From IMG/VR virus record IMGVR_UViG_3300027914_001163, positions 96,001 to 160,000 of that record: 64,000 nucleotides of DNA; one strand, 5' to 3'. The notes below the pieces were generated by a model. It was not told the origin of the DNA. It worked only from the letters and a program-made list of their open reading frames with translations, and did no database searches. Each line of letters begins with the position of its first letter. The stretch's first letter is position 1. The DNA is from a virus (lineage: Duplodnaviria > Caudoviricetes). Both the position numbers and the translations under genes were made by a program. Of this stretch, positions 653-63,559 are shown one piece after another.

Positions 653-1059
653 TGGCTGACATCAGCATGTGCTTTTTTAAATCGTGCGCTTCAAAAATGA
701 AGTGCTATCGGTATACGGCCATTACTGGACAATGGCAATCTTTTATGTCCTTTGAAGAGACATATACTGAAAAGAAAAAAAAGTGCAAAGACTTCAGGAG
801 CAATCGTTATTATTTTGACCGGATTAAATTGTGGAATAAACAGCGAGAGGAATGGATGGCGAGTGTACAAAAAATAAGTATTAAAGAATTTATGACAGTT
901 AAATTTTCCGGCCAGGAAACTTCAGATAGATGTGAACAATGCGGAAGTAAAATAATTAAATCTGAAAATGGAAAATGGTGCTCAAATGACGATTGTACAT
1001 GGAGTGATAACGACTTTTTTGAGCATTTTTTGACCCAACAAAAAAAGAAAAAAAAATAA
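652..1059 (+). CDS. hypothetical Cys-rich protein (possible Zn ribbon)
   Basis: MADISMC start, CEQC...CSNDDC; TAATG coupling. Confidence 0.65.
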   Translation: MADISMCFFKSCASKMKCYRYTAITGQWQSFMSFEETYTEKKKKCKDFRSNRYYFDRIKLWNKQREEWMASVQKISIKEFMTVKFSGQETSDRCEQCGSKIIKSENGKWCSNDDCTWSDNDFFEHFLTQQKKKKK

Positions 1060-1117
1060 TTTTTGCACGAATTTTTTTCATAAAAAGTTGACAAATTATC
1101 ATACCTTACGATAGAAA
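1060..1117 (+). promoter_or_regulatory. conserved phage promoter element, copy 1 (-10 diverged)
   Basis: TTTTGCACGAATTTT..AGTTGACAAATTATCATAC, shared with 10919-10975 and 63290-63346. Confidence 0.65.
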
Positions 1118-1118
1118 T

Positions 1119-1155
1119 CTTGCAACAGGGTAAAGATTTGAATGTTGGTTACAAT
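1119..1155 (+). CRISPR. orphan CRISPR repeat of the 25.1-25.4 kb array type
   Basis: CTTGCAACAGGGTAAAGATTTGAATGTTGGTT matches the first 32 of 37 nt of the array repeat. Confidence 0.85.
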
Positions 1156-1169
1156 GGGAGGAAACGATA

Positions 1170-1439
1170 ATGTTAAAAGGATTGTTACACGGTCTTCTGG
1201 TCGGTGCTATTATAGCACTCATTTTGACTGCGCTGTGTTGCCAGACTCAAAAAGAGAAACCATCCGGACCTTTTAAGACTGCGGAATGGAAAGACTGTTT
1301 TGAGGAATGCAAATCTTCGCTTCCAAAGAATCTGTCCATTTCAGATTTTGATAATGGCGAGATTAAAAAAATGAATCCAGATGAACTCTGTGTTCGTTTT
1401 TGCACACAGGCATTATATCATCGTCGGGGTATTCAGTGA
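1170..1439 (+). CDS. hypothetical membrane-anchored protein
   Basis: N-terminal hydrophobic helix, GGAGG RBS. Confidence 0.65.
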   Translation: MLKGLLHGLLVGAIIALILTALCCQTQKEKPSGPFKTAEWKDCFEECKSSLPKNLSISDFDNGEIKKMNPDELCVRFCTQALYHRRGIQ

Positions 1440-3020: not shown

Positions 3021-3092
3021 TGAGCGGTAGCCAAGCGGTAAGGCATCGGGTTTTGGTCTCGACATCCGAGGGTTCGAATCCTTCCCGCTCAG
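3021..3092 (+). tRNA. tRNA-Gln(TTG)
   Basis: TGAGCGG/CCGCTCA acceptor stem, TCGGG-tt TTG gt-CTCGA anticodon arm, GGTTCGAATCC. Confidence 0.92.
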
Positions 3093-3104
3093 ATCGGAAA
3101 AGAA

Positions 3105-3491
3105 ATGAATATAGATTTTAAAAAATTATCACAGTCAGAAGGATACAAGAGGTTAAAGGCTTCGGTATTGTATGATTGCTATGAGCGTGGTAAGAAGAAG
3201 TGTTTTCGAACAACCGGATGCGATAAAAAACCTGGATGTTCTCATCGGTATTGCGATCAGTTCAAGTATGTCATTGACTTGGTTCGAAAATGCGCACATC
3301 AGACAGGGCTTGATCCTGTTGATATATTGAATGGTTGGGAGAAAGACAGGACGTGTTGGTATATGAATTTTTACCAAGCATGTTATGAGAAAAGATTATT
3401 TAGTCTATCGGTAGAAAACGCCGTGGCCTTCAATGGCGCAGTAGACACATCTGTAAGTTCAACACTCGACGGAGATATGGTTCAGAAGTAG
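3105..3491 (+). CDS. hypothetical phage protein
   Basis: 128-aa ORF with a WEKDRTCWYMNFYQ segment. Confidence 0.7.
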   Translation: MNIDFKKLSQSEGYKRLKASVLYDCYERGKKKCFRTTGCDKKPGCSHRYCDQFKYVIDLVRKCAHQTGLDPVDILNGWEKDRTCWYMNFYQACYEKRLFSLSVENAVAFNGAVDTSVSSTLDGDMVQK

Positions 3492-3647
3492 GAGCGTTGT
3501 CTGAAAATGAACCGGAGGCTCTTGATTGGTGTGGGGATTCTGGCAAACAACGATAACTCCAGAGTTGAAACATCTTGAGTAGACTCGTCCGAAGACCTGG
3601 ACGGCTAACGTGATGACAGTTTGTTGAACAAGGACTCGATGTTATGT

Positions 3648-3680
3648 CTTGCAACAGGGTTAAGATTTTTTTGTTGTAAT
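3648..3680 (+). CRISPR. degenerate orphan CRISPR repeat
   Basis: CTTGCAACAGGGTTAAGATTT matches the repeat 5' part at 20/21 nt and ends GTTGTAAT. Confidence 0.65.
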
Positions 3681-3711
3681 AATGGTTCATCGGAATAAAA
3701 AACCATTTTAA

Positions 3712-3786
3712 CGGGGTGTAGCGCAGTCCGGTCAGCGCACTTGATTTGGGTTCAAGTTGTCGAGAGTTCGAATCTCTCCACCCCGA
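3712..3786 (+). tRNA. tRNA-Pro(TGG)
   Basis: CGGGGTG/CACCCCG acceptor stem, CTTGA-tt TGG gt-TCAAG. Confidence 0.92.
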
Positions 3787-3795
3787 AATTGTTTT

Positions 3796-3867
3796 GCGGA
3801 TGTAACCCAACGGTAGGGCATATGATTTCCAATCATATCATTGTGCGTTCGAGTCGCATCATCCGCT
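3796..3867 (+). tRNA. tRNA-Gly(TCC)
   Basis: GCGGATG/CATCCGC acceptor stem, TATGA-tt TCC aa-TCATA. Confidence 0.9.
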
Positions 3868-3870
3868 CAT

Positions 3871-3943
3871 GGGGTTGTCGTCTAATTGGTTAGGACAGCG
3901 GTTTTTCGAACCGTCAACCAGAGTTCAAATCTCTGCAACCCTA
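3871..3943 (+). tRNA. tRNA-Glu(TTC)
   Basis: GGGGTTG/CAACCCT acceptor stem, GCGGT-tt TTC ga-ACCGT. Confidence 0.88.
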
Positions 3944-3949
3944 ATGCTT

Positions 3950-4350
3950 AGAATATGCACCGGAAGCCGGAGAGTTGTAATTCCAAAGGAAGCCGTTTGA
4001 TCAACGGTGGATGGGACTCGGTGATGGAGCCGGTATTACAGTTTTAAGCCGTATACGATAGTGTCTACCTTCGACGTGGAAGGCTCGACTTGGAGAGAGT
4101 AAACATTCCGATCCAAGGAGCCAACGTTGGCTGCCGGTGGGTCTCGATTGGAGAACCAGACTCGGTAAGTGCGTTGGACATCGGAAAAGGGTATCCAGGT
4201 TTAAAATTAATGCAGGGATTGAGGCGACTCCCGGTTCTTTTAGATTATAAGAAAATCTCCAATTACTGAACCGAAAGCCTTTACCTCAACGTAGTAAATT
4301 GAGGATTATCGTATCCAGGTTTTTGTGAGGCTTCCTGGTAAATAAAAAGC
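3950..4350 (+). ncRNA. candidate large structured non-coding RNA inside the tRNA cluster
   Basis: About 400 nt with no credible ORF and many hairpins; strand assumed from flanking tRNAs; boundaries approximate. Confidence 0.45.
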
Positions 4351-4358
4351 CAAGGTAT

Positions 4359-4435
4359 AGCGGGGTAGACCAGTTGGTAAGTCGGCTGGCTCATAACCAG
4401 TGTCAATATCGTCGGTTCGAACCCGACCCCCGCAA
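4359..4435 (+). tRNA. tRNA-Met(CAT), initiator-like
   Basis: GCTGG-ct CAT aa-CCAGT; unpaired 1:72 (A/A) above a GCGGGG/CCCCGC stem. Confidence 0.85.
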
Positions 4436-4455
4436 ATTTTAAAAAGAGATAGTAA

Positions 4456-5064
4456 ATGAACCGTAGCGAAGCAGGAAAATTAGGAGCATTAAAATCTAAA
4501 CCTATATTGCAAAAACGTTTTGATAATATCAAAAAACAATATTATCATAATCCAAAAGTTTGTAAAAGTTGTAAAACAATTTTGCAATATCATCAACGAG
4601 ATAATACATTTTGTACTAAATCTTGTGCTGCTCAATTTTATAATGTTAAAAGAGGAAAAAAAACTAAAACTGAAAAGTATTGTTTAAATTGTGGAAAATT
4701 AGTAAAAGTTAAATATTGTAATAATACTTGTCGGGCTGAATACAAATGGAAACAATTATGTATTGAAATAGAAAATAAGAAACAATTTCCTTATAACAAA
4801 AACACTAATGATACAAACAGAAAAATAGTTAAAAAATATTTAACAGAAAAATTTGGAGATAAGTGTTTTATTTGTGGAATTACTAAATGGAATAATAAAG
4901 ATTTAATTAAGATTATAGATCATATTGACGGCGATACGCATAATCATAAAGTAGAAAATTTTAGATTGGTATGTAGTAATTGTGATAGTCAATTGGAAAC
5001 TTATAAATCTAAAAATAAAAAAGGAAAACGTTCTTGGAGAAAAAAATACGCCTCTGTAGTTTAA
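4456..5064 (+). CDS. HNH homing endonuclease
   Basis: CFIC...IDHIDGDTHNHKVENFRLVCSNC plus N-terminal CxxC fingers; AT-rich; sits between tRNAs. Confidence 0.85.
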   Translation: MNRSEAGKLGALKSKPILQKRFDNIKKQYYHNPKVCKSCKTILQYHQRDNTFCTKSCAAQFYNVKRGKKTKTEKYCLNCGKLVKVKYCNNTCRAEYKWKQLCIEIENKKQFPYNKNTNDTNRKIVKKYLTEKFGDKCFICGITKWNNKDLIKIIDHIDGDTHNHKVENFRLVCSNCDSQLETYKSKNKKGKRSWRKKYASVV

Positions 5065-5122
5065 ATGGATAGAACGACTGATTTGTAATCAGTAAATTTC
5101 GGATCGTACCCGAATGGAGGCT
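5050..5122 (+). tRNA. tRNA-Thr(TGT)
   Basis: GCCTCTG/TGGAGGC acceptor stem, ACTGA-tt TGT aa-TCAGT; atypical T-loop ATCGTAC. Confidence 0.8.
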
Positions 5123-5126
5123 ATAT

Positions 5127-5200
5127 TCTGCGGTAGCTCAGTTGGTAGTAGCAATTGACTGTTAATCAATGGGTCGGAAGTTCGAATCTTCCCCGCAGAG
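5127..5200 (+). tRNA. tRNA-Asn(GTT)
   Basis: TCTGCGG/CCGCAGA acceptor stem, ATTGA-ct GTT aa-TCAAT. Confidence 0.92.
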
Positions 5201-5205
5201 CATAA

Positions 5206-5278
5206 AGGGGTTTGCGAGTAGTGGTAGCCGGTCGGTCTCCAAAACCGTACAGCACGGGTTCGAATCCTGTAGCCCCTG
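5206..5278 (+). tRNA. tRNA-Trp(CCA)
   Basis: AGGGGTT/AGCCCCT acceptor stem, CGGT-ct CCA aa-ACCG, GGTTCGAATCC. Confidence 0.88.
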
Positions 5279-10647: not shown

Positions 10648-10908
10648 ATGAAAAATTATTACAAGAAAGAGAAACTGGTCCGGGGTGACGTTGTTAAACA
10701 CAAGGAATACGGCAAGGGTGTTGTTGCTGAATATTGCGACGATGGCCGGTTTATCCAGGTGCGGTTCCAGAAAGAGCCTCCCAAGCCAACGAACTACAAA
10801 TTCAGTGCCAATCCGTTCGTGGTTCCCGTTGAAACACTGGAAAAAATACGCTTTAAAAAGGAAACAAAAGTGGTCGATCCGGTGGCCAGTGAACCCGTTA
10901 TAGGATAA
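10648..10908 (+). CDS. hypothetical protein (SH3-like)
   Basis: GDVVKHKEYGKGVV motif, AGGAG RBS. Confidence 0.65.
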   Translation: MKNYYKKEKLVRGDVVKHKEYGKGVVAEYCDDGRFIQVRFQKEPPKPTNYKFSANPFVVPVETLEKIRFKKETKVVDPVASEPVIG

Positions 10909-10918
10909 AAAAAATTAT

Positions 10919-10975
10919 TTTTTTGCACGAATTTTTTCCAAAAGAGTTGACAAATTATCATACTCTTTGTATATT
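10919..10975 (+). promoter_or_regulatory. conserved sigma70-type phage promoter, copy 2
   Basis: TTGACA(10947)-N17-TATATT with upstream TTTTGCACGAATTTT. Confidence 0.75.
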
Positions 10976-25118: not shown

Positions 25119-25129
25119 ATAGTTGTTGA

Positions 25130-25378
25130 CTTATTATAGGGTAAATATTTGAATGTTGGTTATAACCTTGAAAGGATTTACAAGCCTGGATTCAAATATC
25201 TTGCAACAGGGTAAAGATTTGAATGTTGGTTGTAACTATTCGCTATTCGCGATTCGCGAATAGCGATAAACTTGCAACAGGGTAAAGATTTGAATGTTGG
25301 TTGTAACTATACAGGAGAACTCACTCGATGAAAAAAACAGTCTTGCAACAGGGTAAAGATTTGAATGTTGGTTGTAAC
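25130..25378 (+). CRISPR. CRISPR mini-array: 4 x 37-bp repeats (first degenerate), 3 spacers of 33/34/34 bp
   Basis: CTTGCAACAGGGTAAAGATTTGAATGTTGGTTGTAAC at 25200, 25271 and 25342; degenerate copy at 25130. Strand inferred from anti-repeat pairing. Confidence 0.95.
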
Positions 25379-25410
25379 TGTCATTTTTTTTAATAAAATT
25401 GAATTTTTTA

Positions 25411-25440
25411 TTGACAAAAATGGCTTTAATAAACTATTAT
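25411..25440 (+). promoter_or_regulatory. sigma70-type promoter for the tracr/omegaRNA-iscB unit
   Basis: TTGACA-N18-TATTAT with AT-rich upstream DNA. Confidence 0.6.
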
Positions 25441-25447
25441 CTTTACA

Positions 25448-25788
25448 GTTGTTCCGCTAACCATAAGCGGTGTTCGAAAACCGGTAGGTTAGCGGAAGTT
25501 GCAACCAACATTCAAATCTTTACCCTGTCCTCTACGGCAAGAGGATATTCCAAAGTAACATTTGGGAAAATGCAGATTAGGGGGCTTAAAAGAAATTTTA
25601 TGCAGAAGTTTGAAGCAAGCGTTAAAGTAACACCAGTGGATACTCCTCTCGTCCACTGCTCTGTAAATTCTCATGTAAGAAAAGAGAATGATCTTTGCCG
25701 TTGTCATGAGAATATAGTACCTACTTCAAACAACCCCGAAGAGGCTCTACCTCAACATAAAGAGGAGCAGAAGTCGAGACTATCTGCT
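25448..25788 (+). ncRNA. tracrRNA-like anti-repeat fused to an omegaRNA (HEARO-like) scaffold
   Basis: Anti-repeat 25498-25528; CAGTGGA/TCCACTG hairpin; GTTTGAAG/CTTCAAAC and TTCTCATG/CATGAGAA stems; AGCAGA/TCTGCT hairpin before the ATG. Confidence 0.8.
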
Positions 25789-26982
25789 ATGGTTTATGTA
25801 ATCAATATGCGTGGTAATCCGTTGATGCCATGCAGTTGTCGAAAGGCAAGAGTGCTTTTAAAAAACAAAAAAGCAAAAGTAGCACAACGGTCTCCATTTA
25901 CAATTCAACTGCTTTATGCAACAGGAGAAACCACGGAACCAATAACGTTAGGATTTGATCCGGGTTATGCTCATGATGGTTTTTCAGCCAGGACTGCAAC
26001 TTGTGAATTAATTTCAGGAGAGTTGGAACACGAAAACGGAATGTCCAAGAGGCTACAAGAACGTAGTATGTATCGTCGCAACAGAAGAAGCAGATTGTGG
26101 CATAGACCTCCCCGATGGAGAAATAGAACAGCATCGAAAAAAGAAGGATGGCTTCCTCCTTCTACACAACGCAGATTAAATACTCATGCATCTTTGATTA
26201 AAAAAATAACAAGAATATTACCTGTTACTGATCTTATTATTGAAATAGCAAAATTCGATATTCAAAAAATTGAAAATCCAGAAATTGAAGGGATGCAATA
26301 TCAACAAGGTTCCCTATATCAATATAGAAATAGGATTGCATTTTTAATAGCACGAGAGCATGGCAAGTGTCAGTATTGCCATAAAGAATATAATAAAAAC
26401 GATGGTTGGAGACTGCACCATATATGGGGAAAATCCAAAGATCGTTCTCAAGATTGGGCATTGGTTCACGAATCATGCCACAAAAAATTGCACTTGAATA
26501 AAGAAGAAGGTATTTTACAAAAAGCAAAAAGCAAAAGTTATAAAAATGCAACATATATGAATGTTGTTCGCAACCGAATAAAACAATTATATCCAATGGC
26601 TCAATTCACATATGGCTATATCACATTTCAAAATAGAGTAGATTTACAATTACCGAAAACACATTATAATGACGCTTTTGTAATATCGGGCGGGACAAAT
26701 CAAGAGCGTATCAAACCTTTTAATATTATACAAAAGAAAAAAAACAATCGCTGTCTTCAAATAAATAGGCAAGGATACAAACCAAGTATAAGAAGAAAAA
26801 GATATAAAATTCAACCTAAAGATAGTGTGTGGATTGAAGGCAAGGAATATATTTCCAAAGGATGCCAATCTTACGGAAAATATGTATGTGTTATTGGATA
26901 TAAAAAGAAAGTAATATCTATAGATAAAATTGAAAAATATTTTAATGCTAAAACATTAAGATGGGATTTTTTATCCGCTTAA
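25789..26982 (+). CDS. iscB: IscB RNA-guided endonuclease (PLMP, split RuvC, bridge helix, HNH), 397 aa
   Basis: MVYVINMRGNPLMP, LGFDPG, RSMYRRNRRSR, WLPPS, IEIAKFD, CQYC..LHH..CHKKLH, THYNDA; the in-frame extension from 25399 is the ncRNA. Confidence 0.93.
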   Translation: MVYVINMRGNPLMPCSCRKARVLLKNKKAKVAQRSPFTIQLLYATGETTEPITLGFDPGYAHDGFSARTATCELISGELEHENGMSKRLQERSMYRRNRRSRLWHRPPRWRNRTASKKEGWLPPSTQRRLNTHASLIKKITRILPVTDLIIEIAKFDIQKIENPEIEGMQYQQGSLYQYRNRIAFLIAREHGKCQYCHKEYNKNDGWRLHHIWGKSKDRSQDWALVHESCHKKLHLNKEEGILQKAKSKSYKNATYMNVVRNRIKQLYPMAQFTYGYITFQNRVDLQLPKTHYNDAFVISGGTNQERIKPFNIIQKKKNNRCLQINRQGYKPSIRRKRYKIQPKDSVWIEGKEYISKGCQSYGKYVCVIGYKKKVISIDKIEKYFNAKTLRWDFLSA

Positions 26983-63289: not shown

Positions 63290-63346
63290 AATATATCAAT
63301 AGTATGATAATTTGTCAACTCATTGTATTAAAATTCGTGCAAAAAA
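63290..63346 (-). promoter_or_regulatory. conserved sigma70-type phage promoter, copy 3
   Basis: Reverse strand TTTTTTGCACGAATTTT..AGTTGACAAATTATCATAC..TATATT (N17). Confidence 0.75.
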
Positions 63347-63559
63347 TTGCACACAAAATCATAAATATCATTTTGAATTATATTTTTGGCTTCATTTATT
63401 GAATAACTGTGCTTTGTTTTTATATTCGGTAAATGATATTTAATTTTCCAAATAACAACATCTATCCCTGATAAGGAAAGTTTAACTATGGTACACACTC
63501 TGATGTTACCGCAATACGCATGACATTCCGTTGCAGATTGATGTTGTAAACGCAACTCT

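What the first reader, a model, noticed from the sequence alone, without database searches (positions are those of the whole stretch)
1088..1170. Orphan CRISPR repeat at the start site of a phage promoter, 24 kb from the array
Seen: 1119-1150 is identical to the first 32 nt of the array repeat and retains most of the segment that pairs with the anti-repeat. It begins where promoter copy 1 diverges from its two sister copies (the -10/TSS zone) and sits directly before the RBS of the 1170 gene. Inference, three options: a trans-encoded single-guide cassette (guide = upstream ...CATACCTTACGATAGAAAT); a site where the tracr/IscB complex binds or processes this mRNA for regulation; or a repeat-only decoy RNA, as with RNA-based anti-CRISPRs.
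Basis: partly seen in the sequence, partly recalled or inferred. Interest (0 to 1): 0.78.

Follow-up and report, generated by a model that had tools for sequence, protein, structure and literature searches.

The report
Lone guide-RNA repeat of phage IscB
A large T4-like phage that carries its own miniature Cas9-ancestor nuclease (IscB) with a small CRISPR array also has one intact, isolated copy of that array's repeat 24 kb away, inside a phage promoter just ahead of a gene; it has everything needed to work as a guide-RNA handle, but whether it is used, and for what, is untested.

Summary
Window 1119-1150 equals the first 32 nt of the 37-nt repeat of the phage's CRISPR-IscB array (0 chance matches expected).

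The full 37 nt (1119-1155) pair with the anti-repeat at 30 of 31 positions.

The Rfam HEARO model (IscB omegaRNA) and a co-fold show that repeat nt 2-6 (UUGCA) form the omegaRNA P1 helix with tracr 25571-25575. The solo copy is therefore a complete crRNA handle.

It lies in one of five genomic copies of an early-type promoter. It replaces the -10/start zone there, and the predicted start (A1124/1125) falls inside the repeat.

A decayed second copy lies at 3648. A borderline third lies outside the window.

No relative of this phage, repeat or promoter exists in any collection I could search, so conservation cannot be tested.

| Reading | Weight |
|---|---|
| Array-independent crRNA unit for the phage's own IscB, guide = 16-20 nt upstream, made from read-through transcripts | about 0.4 |
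| Guide-less tracr competitor or 5'UTR control | 0.25 |
| Neutral recombination relic | 0.3 |
| Racr-type decoy against a foreign system | 0.05 |

It is a new variant of viral solitary repeat units.

Unchecked notes from this scan report scattered repeats or guide units for IscB in other phages.

The parts
1061..1075 (+). Conserved upstream box TTTTGCACGAATTTT of the promoter family
   Evidence: Exact in all five family copies, with further copies elsewhere in the genome.
1088..1104 (+). Promoter core TTGACAAATTATCATAC (-35 TTGACA at 1088-1093); copy 1 of 5
   Evidence: Five exact copies in the 191-kb genome, three of them in the window: 1088 (+), 10947 (+) and 63302-63318 (-). The four sisters have TATATT, TACATT or TACCTT exactly 17 nt downstream.
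1112..1117 (+). Weak -10 candidate TAGAAA (18-nt spacing); predicted start at A1124/A1125
   Evidence: Read from the sequence. It lacks the final T that all the sisters have. The start site is inferred and was not measured.
1103..1118 (+). Candidate 16-nt guide ACCTTACGATAGAAAT (1099-1118 if the guide is 20 nt)
   Evidence: It lies directly 5' of the repeat, as the spacers do in the array. A 16-nt guide is what was used for DelIscB (PMC12660989). It has no seed match of 10 nt or more elsewhere in the genome. The 18-mer has one hit in IMG/VR, at chance level.
1119..1155 (+). Solitary CRISPR repeat. Nt 1120-1124 (UUGCA) form the 5' strand of the P1 helix; nt 1125-1155 pair with the anti-repeat
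   Evidence: 32 of 32 nt identical and 34 of 37 overall. Duplex energy -48.5 kcal/mol. The co-fold with the tracr reproduces the architecture seen with the array crRNAs, at -64.8 kcal/mol.
1156..1439 (+). Shine-Dalgarno GGGAGG (1156-1161) and an 89-aa ORF (1170-1439) with an N-terminal hydrophobic segment and six Cys
   Evidence: No Pfam family. Only a weak PHROG match of unknown function.
3648..3684 (+). Second, decayed solo repeat, 64 nt upstream of the tRNA cluster
   Evidence: The first 13 nt are exact, and 27 of 40 match in the ungapped register. By eye, a 4-nt gap also restores the TTGTAA end. Pairing with the tracr is only -27.5 kcal/mol, within the shuffle range.
25130..25378 (+). CRISPR mini-array: a degenerate leader repeat plus three identical 37-nt repeats, with three spacers
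25411..25440 (+). Predicted tracr/omegaRNA promoter TTGACA-18 nt-TATTAT
   Evidence: Read from the sequence. Consensus match only.
25498..25528 (+). Anti-repeat of the tracr/omegaRNA
   Evidence: Reverse complement of repeat nt 7-37, with one G.U pair.
25571..25575 (+). UGCAG, the 3' strand of the omegaRNA P1 helix; it pairs with repeat nt 2-6
   Evidence: The HEARO alignment places the P1 closing strand here. The relative L014 has GUCAAC/GUUGAU at the same place. The co-fold forms this helix.
25516..25750 (+). omegaRNA scaffold (Rfam HEARO, below the gathering score)
   Evidence: 60.9 bits, E 9e-12, gathering score 83. It is the only such match in the genome.
25789..26982 (+). IscB, 397 aa
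   Evidence: Pfam RRXRR 1.8e-57 and HNH. RuvC and HNH residues are invariant across relatives.

Best explanation
The element is a real solitary copy of the repeat of this phage's own CRISPR-associated IscB system, and it is a complete crRNA handle.

**Proposed mechanism**
1. RNA that reads through 1099-1155 comes from the co-oriented upstream operon.
2. This RNA pairs with the single tracr/omegaRNA. Repeat nt 2-6 form helix P1 and nt 7-37 form the long duplex.
3. Host RNase III cuts the duplex, as in type II systems.
4. IscB is loaded with the 16-20 nt upstream (...ACCUUACGAUAGAAAU) as an extra guide that does not depend on the array.
5. The phage's own copy of that sequence is spared, because the repeat occupies the position where the target-adjacent motif would lie, as in the array.
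6. Transcripts that start at the displaced promoter (predicted A1124/1125) would carry the duplex strand but no guide and no P1 strand. They could only compete for tracr.

**Shown:** identity, pairing, architecture, genomic uniqueness and orientation.

**Inferred:** transcription, processing, loading and the existence of a target.
For: - **Identity.** 32 of 32 nt match, and all 37 positions can be aligned.
- **Strong pairing with the anti-repeat.** Duplex energy is -48.5 kcal/mol, against a shuffle mean of -15.8.
- **The 5' six nt matter.** They do not pair with the anti-repeat but are the P1 strand of the HEARO/omegaRNA fold. The HEARO alignment of our tracr and of relative L014 shows this.
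- **Compensatory change.** Relatives have GUCAAC/GUUGAU where our phage has UUGCA/UGCAG.
- **Same fold as the array crRNAs.** The co-fold of 1103-1155 with the tracr gives -64.8 kcal/mol, against -68.7 and -70.3 for array crRNAs.
- **Contrast with the leader repeat.** The degenerate leader repeat has lost this P1 strand.
- **Read-through is possible.** The genes at 3-1059 and at 1170 onward are on the + strand, and no terminator-like site lies in 1059-1119.
- **Orientation.** All detectable solo copies (1119, 3648 and genome position 74902) keep the exact 5' end of the repeat, are intergenic, and are co-oriented with transcription.
- **Trans action is required.** The genome has only one scaffold.
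- **IscB looks catalytically intact**.
- **Leads, unchecked.** Other notes of this scan describe dispersed guide units for phage IscB.
Against: - **The nearest promoter would give no guide.** By consensus it would start transcription inside the repeat.
- **No convincing target.** The 18-mer guide has one IMG/VR hit, in an unrelated phage ORF. About 1-5 such hits are expected by chance.
- **No GenBank phage hit**.
- **No seed of 10 nt or more elsewhere in the genome**.
- **The target-adjacent motif of this IscB is unknown.**
- **No relatives.** None exists to show conservation.
- **Similar copies decay.** The copies at 3648 and 74902 are degenerate, so such copies are not always maintained.
- **The promoter is damaged.** The -10 of the promoter copy is lost, as expected from a disruptive accident.
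Confidence: 0.4

Rival explanations
1. **Guide-less competitor or 5'UTR control element.** The promoter copy is active and starts at A1124/1125, so the leader of the 1170 mRNA begins with the duplex strand of the repeat. The tracr/omegaRNA, with or without IscB, binds this leader up to 1155, one base before the Shine-Dalgarno. Binding either lowers translation or stability of the mRNA through RNase III, or it titrates tracr and IscB away from the array crRNAs early in infection.
For: - The -35 box and the upstream box are perfect.
- The predicted start coincides with the first paired base.
- The leader-tracr co-fold gives -58.2 kcal/mol.
- The duplex ends 1 nt before the Shine-Dalgarno.
- Viral solitary repeats are typically immediately downstream of a promoter (PMC10651486).
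- The tracr, array and P1 promoters are all of the sigma-70 type, so their RNAs could coexist.
Against: - The -10 is poor: TAGAAA, with no final T.
- Such an RNA would not need repeat nt 1-6, yet these are intact.
- A phage gains little from blocking its own nuclease.
- No terminator defines a small RNA.
Confidence: 0.25
2. **Neutral relic.** A fragment of the array, or of a crRNA-sized piece (14-18 nt of spacer plus 32 nt of repeat), was pasted into the promoter copy by illegitimate recombination. It destroyed the -10 and has no function of its own.
For: - Identity stops at nt 32.
- The -10 is replaced, and the leader is about 26 nt longer than in three of the four sister copies, whose ATG lies at about +56 to +58 against +82 here.
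- The 4-nt ATAC overlap between the promoter core and the unique 14 nt looks like a microhomology junction.
- Two further copies are decayed.
- There is no conservation evidence.
Against: - All three copies keep the exact 5' boundary of the repeat. No copy retains only the core.
- The three 3' differences still leave 30 of 31 pairs with the anti-repeat.
- All copies are intergenic and on the transcribed strand.
Confidence: 0.3
3. **RNA anti-CRISPR (Racr) aimed at a foreign system.** The RNA mimics the repeat of a host's or a rival phage's IscB or Cas9 system and ties up that system's tracr and nuclease.
For: - It has the general layout of viral solitary repeat units, with a promoter next to the repeat (PMC10651486).
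Against: - The repeat core is absent from 185,579 species genomes, from IMG/VR and from JGI metagenomes.
- The only cognate system known is the phage's own.
Confidence: 0.05

Closest known systems
Viral solitary repeat units and RNA anti-CRISPRs (Faure et al. 2019, from my own knowledge; Camara-Wilpert et al. 2023, PMC10651486)
   Same: A single CRISPR repeat outside any array in a virus genome, placed directly behind a predicted promoter.
   Different: - The cognate nuclease, array and tracr are in the same phage genome.
- No host carrying this repeat is known.
- The system depends on a tracr (IscB), so the partner is an RNA and not a Cas6/Cas7 protein.
- The repeat is the leader of a protein-coding gene. 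It is not a stand-alone small RNA with a terminator.
CRISPR-associated IscB (Altae-Tran et al. 2021, from my own knowledge; DelIscB, PMC12660989)
   Same: IscB with a repeat/anti-repeat split of the omegaRNA. The guide lies 5' of the repeat. DelIscB works with a 16-nt guide.
   Different: In the published systems the guides sit in the array next to iscB. Here one extra handle lies 24 kb away. In the papers I read I found no description of a dispersed solo repeat for IscB.
Noncanonical crRNAs from cellular mRNAs (Jiao et al. 2021, PMC8224270)
   Same: An mRNA segment complementary to the tracrRNA anti-repeat can be turned into a guide RNA. The mRNA sequence 5' of the pairing becomes the guide.
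   Different: Those are fortuitous, imperfect matches in host transcripts. Here the match is a near-perfect repeat copy that includes the P1 strand.
crRNA-like regulators: tracr-L, scaRNA, CreA, mini-arrays (Shmakov et al., PMC10120712; Liu et al., bioRxiv 10.1101/2024.10.29.618823)
   Same: A stand-alone repeat with an adjacent spacer-like sequence, used for something other than ordinary interference.
   Different: Those act through partial matches to the promoters of cas or toxin genes. Here no seed match of 10 nt or more exists anywhere in the phage genome.
IS200/IS605 IscB-omegaRNA donor-joint targeting (Meers et al., PMC10055086)
   Same: The guide is simply the DNA that flanks the 5' end of the scaffold. 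The element's own presence protects the occupied site.
   Different: There is no transposase and there are no transposon ends. Only the first 37 nt of the RNA handle are present at the site.

Membership tests
Viral solitary repeat unit (SRU) | One CRISPR-repeat copy outside an array in a virus or plasmid genome | tested here: met
   The genome is an IMG/VR virus record of 191,433 bp.
Viral solitary repeat unit (SRU) | [quoted passage not shown] | tested here: met
   The -35 box lies 31 nt upstream of the repeat, in a five-copy promoter family. The -10 is weak, and the promoter is predicted only.
Viral solitary repeat unit (SRU) | Not associated with cas genes | tested here: not met
   The same genome encodes the cognate IscB, array and tracr 24 kb away.
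RNA anti-CRISPR (Racr) | Mimics the repeat of a host CRISPR-Cas system | tested here: not met
   There is no exact match of the 21-nt repeat core in 185,579 species genomes, in IMG/VR or in JGI metagenomes. The searches were exact-match only, and the host is unknown.
RNA anti-CRISPR (Racr) | Inhibits interference by forming aberrant complexes | not testable with these tools
   This needs interference assays.
crRNA of the phage's CRISPR-associated IscB | Repeat strand that pairs with the anti-repeat | tested here: met
   30 of 31 positions pair, at -48.5 kcal/mol.
crRNA of the phage's CRISPR-associated IscB | 5' strand of omegaRNA helix P1 between the guide and the duplex | tested here: met
   UUGCA (1120-1124) pairs with UGCAG (25571-25575).
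crRNA of the phage's CRISPR-associated IscB | Transcribed together with at least 16 nt of 5' guide | not testable with these tools
   No terminator is predicted upstream, but the nearest promoter would start inside the repeat.
crRNA of the phage's CRISPR-associated IscB | Guide matches a target next to a valid target-adjacent motif | tested here: inconclusive
   There is one 18-nt hit, in L009, at chance level. The motif is unknown. The spacer 2 protospacer gave no usable motif.
Regulatory crRNA-like RNA (tracr-L, scaRNA, CreA type) | Partial complementarity of the spacer-like part to a promoter in the same genome | tested here: not met
   The 10-12-nt seeds of the candidate guide occur only at their own locus.

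The most novel reading that the evidence does not exclude
The lone repeat is an 'anti-sibling' or homing-type guide unit. By sitting between a stretch of the phage's own DNA and the motif that IscB needs, it does two things at once. It makes a guide against the repeat-free version of this locus in co-infecting relatives, and it protects its own copy. IscB cutting followed by recombination would then spread the repeat and the neighbouring genes. This is the donor-joint logic of IS200/IS605 IscB elements without any transposon.

One hint: the single IMG/VR hit to the 18-nt guide is followed by TGGGA. The same five bases follow the solo repeat if 1119-1154 are removed. I put the chance of that extra match at roughly 1 in 100, judged after the fact.
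Probability: 0.1. Interest if true: 0.85.

Novelty: new variant of a known kind. Interest (0 to 1): 0.5.

Why it matters
Solitary CRISPR repeats in viruses are currently read as decoys against host immunity. Here the only known partner of the repeat is the phage's own IscB system, and the copy keeps every part of the guide-RNA handle.

If it is used, phage IscB systems without Cas1-Cas2 can place guides anywhere in the genome, simply by having one repeat next to a chosen sequence. That would give a route to new guides without an adaptation machine, and a possible link between transposon-style 'guide from the flank' logic and CRISPR arrays.

The mapping of the repeat's first six bases onto omegaRNA helix P1 also gives a concrete design rule for splitting this omegaRNA into crRNA and tracrRNA.

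If it is only a relic, it still records how array fragments move within phage genomes.

Tried and rejected
**Relatives of the phage or the site**
- Megablast and blastn against GenBank phages found nothing.
- The repeat core is absent from IMG/VR, JGI metagenomes and GTDB genomes.
- The promoter family is absent from IMG/VR.
- IscB in IMG/VR found nothing.
- The nearest homologue of the neighbouring 251-aa gene is 43% identical.

**Other IscB systems, to test generality**
- Four GenBank phage IscB loci have no array.
- Among 80 metagenome IscB loci, none of the roughly 65 closer relatives (41-64% identity) has an array.
- The apparent repeats in L072 and L075 are collagen-like coding repeats.
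- Two distant loci (L080, L087) have type II-like arrays with no solo copies in the DNA held.

**Target-adjacent motif from spacer 2**
- The palindromic core matches L007/L008 over 24-27 nt.
- The repeat-proximal 4-7 nt mismatch in both orientations, so no motif could be read.
- The last 22 nt of spacers 1 and 3 have no exact IMG/VR match.

**Type II-C-like promoter inside the repeat**
- The solo copy ends in TACAAT.
- A start 7 nt further on would lie behind the Shine-Dalgarno, and there is no -35 box. I rejected this reading.

**Self-regulation through partial matches**
- There are no seeds of 10 nt or more.

**Transposon remnant**
- There is no Y1 transposase and only one HEARO scaffold.

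**Assembly artefact**
- A false join at a 32-nt repeat would not create an extra repeat with unique flanks on both sides. I rejected this reading.

**Function of the downstream genes**
- Pfam and PHROGs give none.

Full report
**Context.** The window is bases 96,001-160,000 of a 191,433-bp IMG/VR virus record with an estimated completeness of 83%. The record carries tRNA genes and a phage terminase-like gene. At 25130-26982 it encodes a CRISPR mini-array, a tracr/omegaRNA with an anti-repeat, and a 397-aa IscB with Pfam RRXRR at 1.8e-57 plus HNH.

- Window 1119-1150 equals the first 32 nt of the 37-nt repeat. There are four matches in the window against none in 100 shuffles.
- In the whole genome the core occurs only at the array, the anti-repeat and this site.
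- Over 37 nt the solo copy differs at positions 33, 34 and 37. Against the anti-repeat (25498-25528) this leaves 30 of 31 pairs.
- The duplex energy is -48.5 kcal/mol. The array repeats give -56.6, the degenerate leader repeat gives -36.7, and shuffles average -15.8 with a best of -28.8.
- The element lies in the 110-nt gap between two + strand genes (652-1059 and 1170-1439). The Shine-Dalgarno GGGAGG starts one base after it.

**The promoter.**
- TTGACAAATTATCATAC, with TTTTGCACGAATTTT about 12 nt upstream, occurs five times in the genome. Three copies are in the window: 1088 (+), 10947 (+) and 63302-63318 (-).
- The four sisters have TATATT, TACATT or TACCTT exactly 17 nt after TTGACA. Three have their ATG at about +56 to +58 and one at about +74.
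- Copy 1 has ATAGAA at 17-nt spacing, or TAGAAA at 18-nt spacing. The repeat follows, and the ATG is at +82.
- The repeat and the 14 unique bases before it (1105-1118) therefore occupy the -10/start zone.
- If the promoter still fires, the start would be A1124/1125. That is the first base that pairs with the anti-repeat. This is a prediction from consensus only.

**What the repeat is in structural terms.**
- Rfam's HEARO model, which describes the IscB omegaRNA, matches the closest accessible relative L014 (IscB 61% identical) over its full length at 111.9 bits. The match begins GUCAACUA, which is the 5' strand of helix P1 and pairs with UAGUUGAC downstream.
- Our tracr matches at 60.9 bits, below the gathering score of 83. 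The P1 closing strand falls at AUGCAGAU.
- The 5' strand is missing from the tracr. It is supplied by repeat nt 2-6: UUGCA pairs with UGCAG at 25571-25575.
- Relatives have GUCAAC/GUUGAU at this place, so both strands changed together.
- A co-fold of spacer plus repeat with the tracr forms P1, the long repeat:anti-repeat duplex and the two HEARO hairpins.

| RNA co-folded with the tracr | Energy (kcal/mol) | P1 helix formed |
|---|---|---|
| Spacer 2 + repeat 3 (25255-25307) | -70.3 | yes |
| Spacer 3 + repeat 4 (25326-25378) | -68.7 | yes |
| Solo unit 1103-1155 | -64.8 | yes |
| RNA starting at 1124 (1124-1172) | -58.2 | no |

- The solo copy is therefore a complete crRNA handle and more than a tracr-pairing segment.
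- The degenerate leader repeat has lost the P1 strand: it reads CTTATT.

**Other copies.**
- 3648-3684 shares the first 13 nt exactly and 27 of 40 in the ungapped register. By eye, a 4-nt gap also restores the TTGTAA end. It lies 64 nt upstream of the tRNA cluster and no longer pairs with the tracr beyond the shuffle range.
- Genome position 74902, outside the window, has 17 of 20 matches in an intergenic gap on the + strand. I estimate about 0.01 such hits by chance. A looser scan is at control level, 13 hits against 13, so I call this copy borderline.
- All copies keep the repeat's 5' end, and all are co-oriented with the flanking genes.

**Comparative evidence is not available.**
- The repeat core, the promoter family, and any close relative of the phage or of IscB are absent from every collection I could search.
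- The neighbouring gene's best homologue is 43% identical.
- IscB relatives at 41-64% identity are ordinary omegaRNA-type elements without arrays. GenBank phage IscB loci also lack arrays.
- The split into crRNA and tracr therefore appears to have arisen within this lineage.

**Targets.**
- The 10-12-nt seeds of the candidate guide, and of the three spacers, occur only at their own loci. This rules out tracr-L or CreA-style self-regulation through a seed match.
- The 18-mer ATACCTTACGATAGAAAT has one IMG/VR hit, inside a glycosyltransferase-like ORF of an unrelated contig, L009. My rough estimate is that one to five such hits are expected by chance.
- That hit is followed by TGGGA. The same bases follow the solo repeat if 1119-1154 are removed. 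I note this as an unresolved lead.
- The palindromic core of spacer 2 matches L007/L008, but its repeat-proximal end does not, so no target-adjacent motif can be read.

**Interpretation.**
- *Shown:* the RNA of this site, if made, is a near-optimal partner of the only tracr/omegaRNA.
- *Inferred:* how the RNA is made. Read-through from the upstream operon would give a guide-bearing precursor, since no terminator-like site lies in 1059-1119. The displaced promoter would give a guide-less leader.
- I favour the array-independent crRNA unit at 0.4, for three reasons. The copy keeps the P1 strand, which only a guide-bearing RNA needs. The 5' boundary is exact in all copies. All copies lie on the transcribed strand.
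- The guide-less competitor or 5'UTR control reading (0.25) and a neutral relic (0.3) remain serious alternatives.
- A Racr aimed at a foreign system (0.05) lacks any cognate foreign array.

**Comparison with known systems.**
- Solitary repeat units behind promoters are known in viruses, and some are RNA anti-CRISPRs (PMC10651486).
- tracrRNA can turn mRNAs into guides (PMC8224270).
- Stand-alone repeats can regulate (PMC10120712 and bioRxiv 10.1101/2024.10.29.618823).
- IscB elements take their guide from flanking DNA and cut the empty site (PMC10055086).
- CRISPR-associated IscB is published (PMC12660989).
- This case combines these features in a way I did not find described: a solo handle that is cognate to the phage's own IscB, placed in a gene leader.

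**Earlier notes of this scan.** Unchecked notes report scattered repeats or dispersed guide units for IscB in other phages. They raised my prior for the guide reading, but they are not independent evidence.

Noticed in passing
window 1048-1104, 10907-10963 and 63302-63350 (-); also genome 175423-175465 (+) and 163327-163370 (-): A five-copy early-type promoter module: an A-run, then TTTTGCACGAATTTT, then about 12 nt, then TTGACAAATTATCATAC, then 6 nt, then TAnnTT. The boxes are exact and the linkers vary. At genome position 187295 the same box forms an inverted pair, TGCACGAA-11 nt-TTCGTGCA. This hints at a protein-binding site or a bidirectional terminator.
   Followed up: partly
window 25146-25155 and 25190-25199: The last 10 nt of spacer 1 (ATTCAAATAT) are the exact reverse complement of part of the degenerate leader repeat (ATATTTGAAT). 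The leader repeat and spacer 1 can therefore fold into a hairpin. Spacer 1 may not be an ordinary captured spacer.
   Followed up: no
window 25237-25270; L007 6106-6132; L008 6320-6346: The palindromic core of spacer 2 matches an intergenic hairpin in an IMG/VR phage over 24-27 nt. The 4-7 nt next to the repeat, which would be the seed in an IscB/Cas9-type guide, mismatch in both orientations.
   Followed up: partly
window 25126-25166: The array leader has TTGACT overlapping the first two bases of the degenerate repeat, with TTGAAT 17 nt downstream inside that repeat. Transcription from here would start just before spacer 1. The degenerate repeat may therefore serve as part of the array promoter.
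   Followed up: no
window 3021-5278: A cluster of eight tRNA genes (Rfam). The decayed solo repeat at 3648, together with a second hairpin (about 3681-3707), lies just upstream of one tRNA gene (3712-3786).
   Followed up: no
genome 74902-74921 (outside the window, 21 kb upstream): A possible third decayed repeat copy, GTTGCAACATGGTAAAGTTT. It matches 17 of 20 positions, is intergenic and lies on the + strand. Its statistical support is borderline.
   Followed up: partly
L014 1455-1677 and other metagenome IscB loci (L015-L034): The closest IscB relatives carry a full HEARO omegaRNA that starts with GTCAAC(T/C)ACC. The ORFs called for them in public data run about 60 codons into the RNA gene. 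The same over-call gives the 520-527-aa versions of our IscB.
   Followed up: partly
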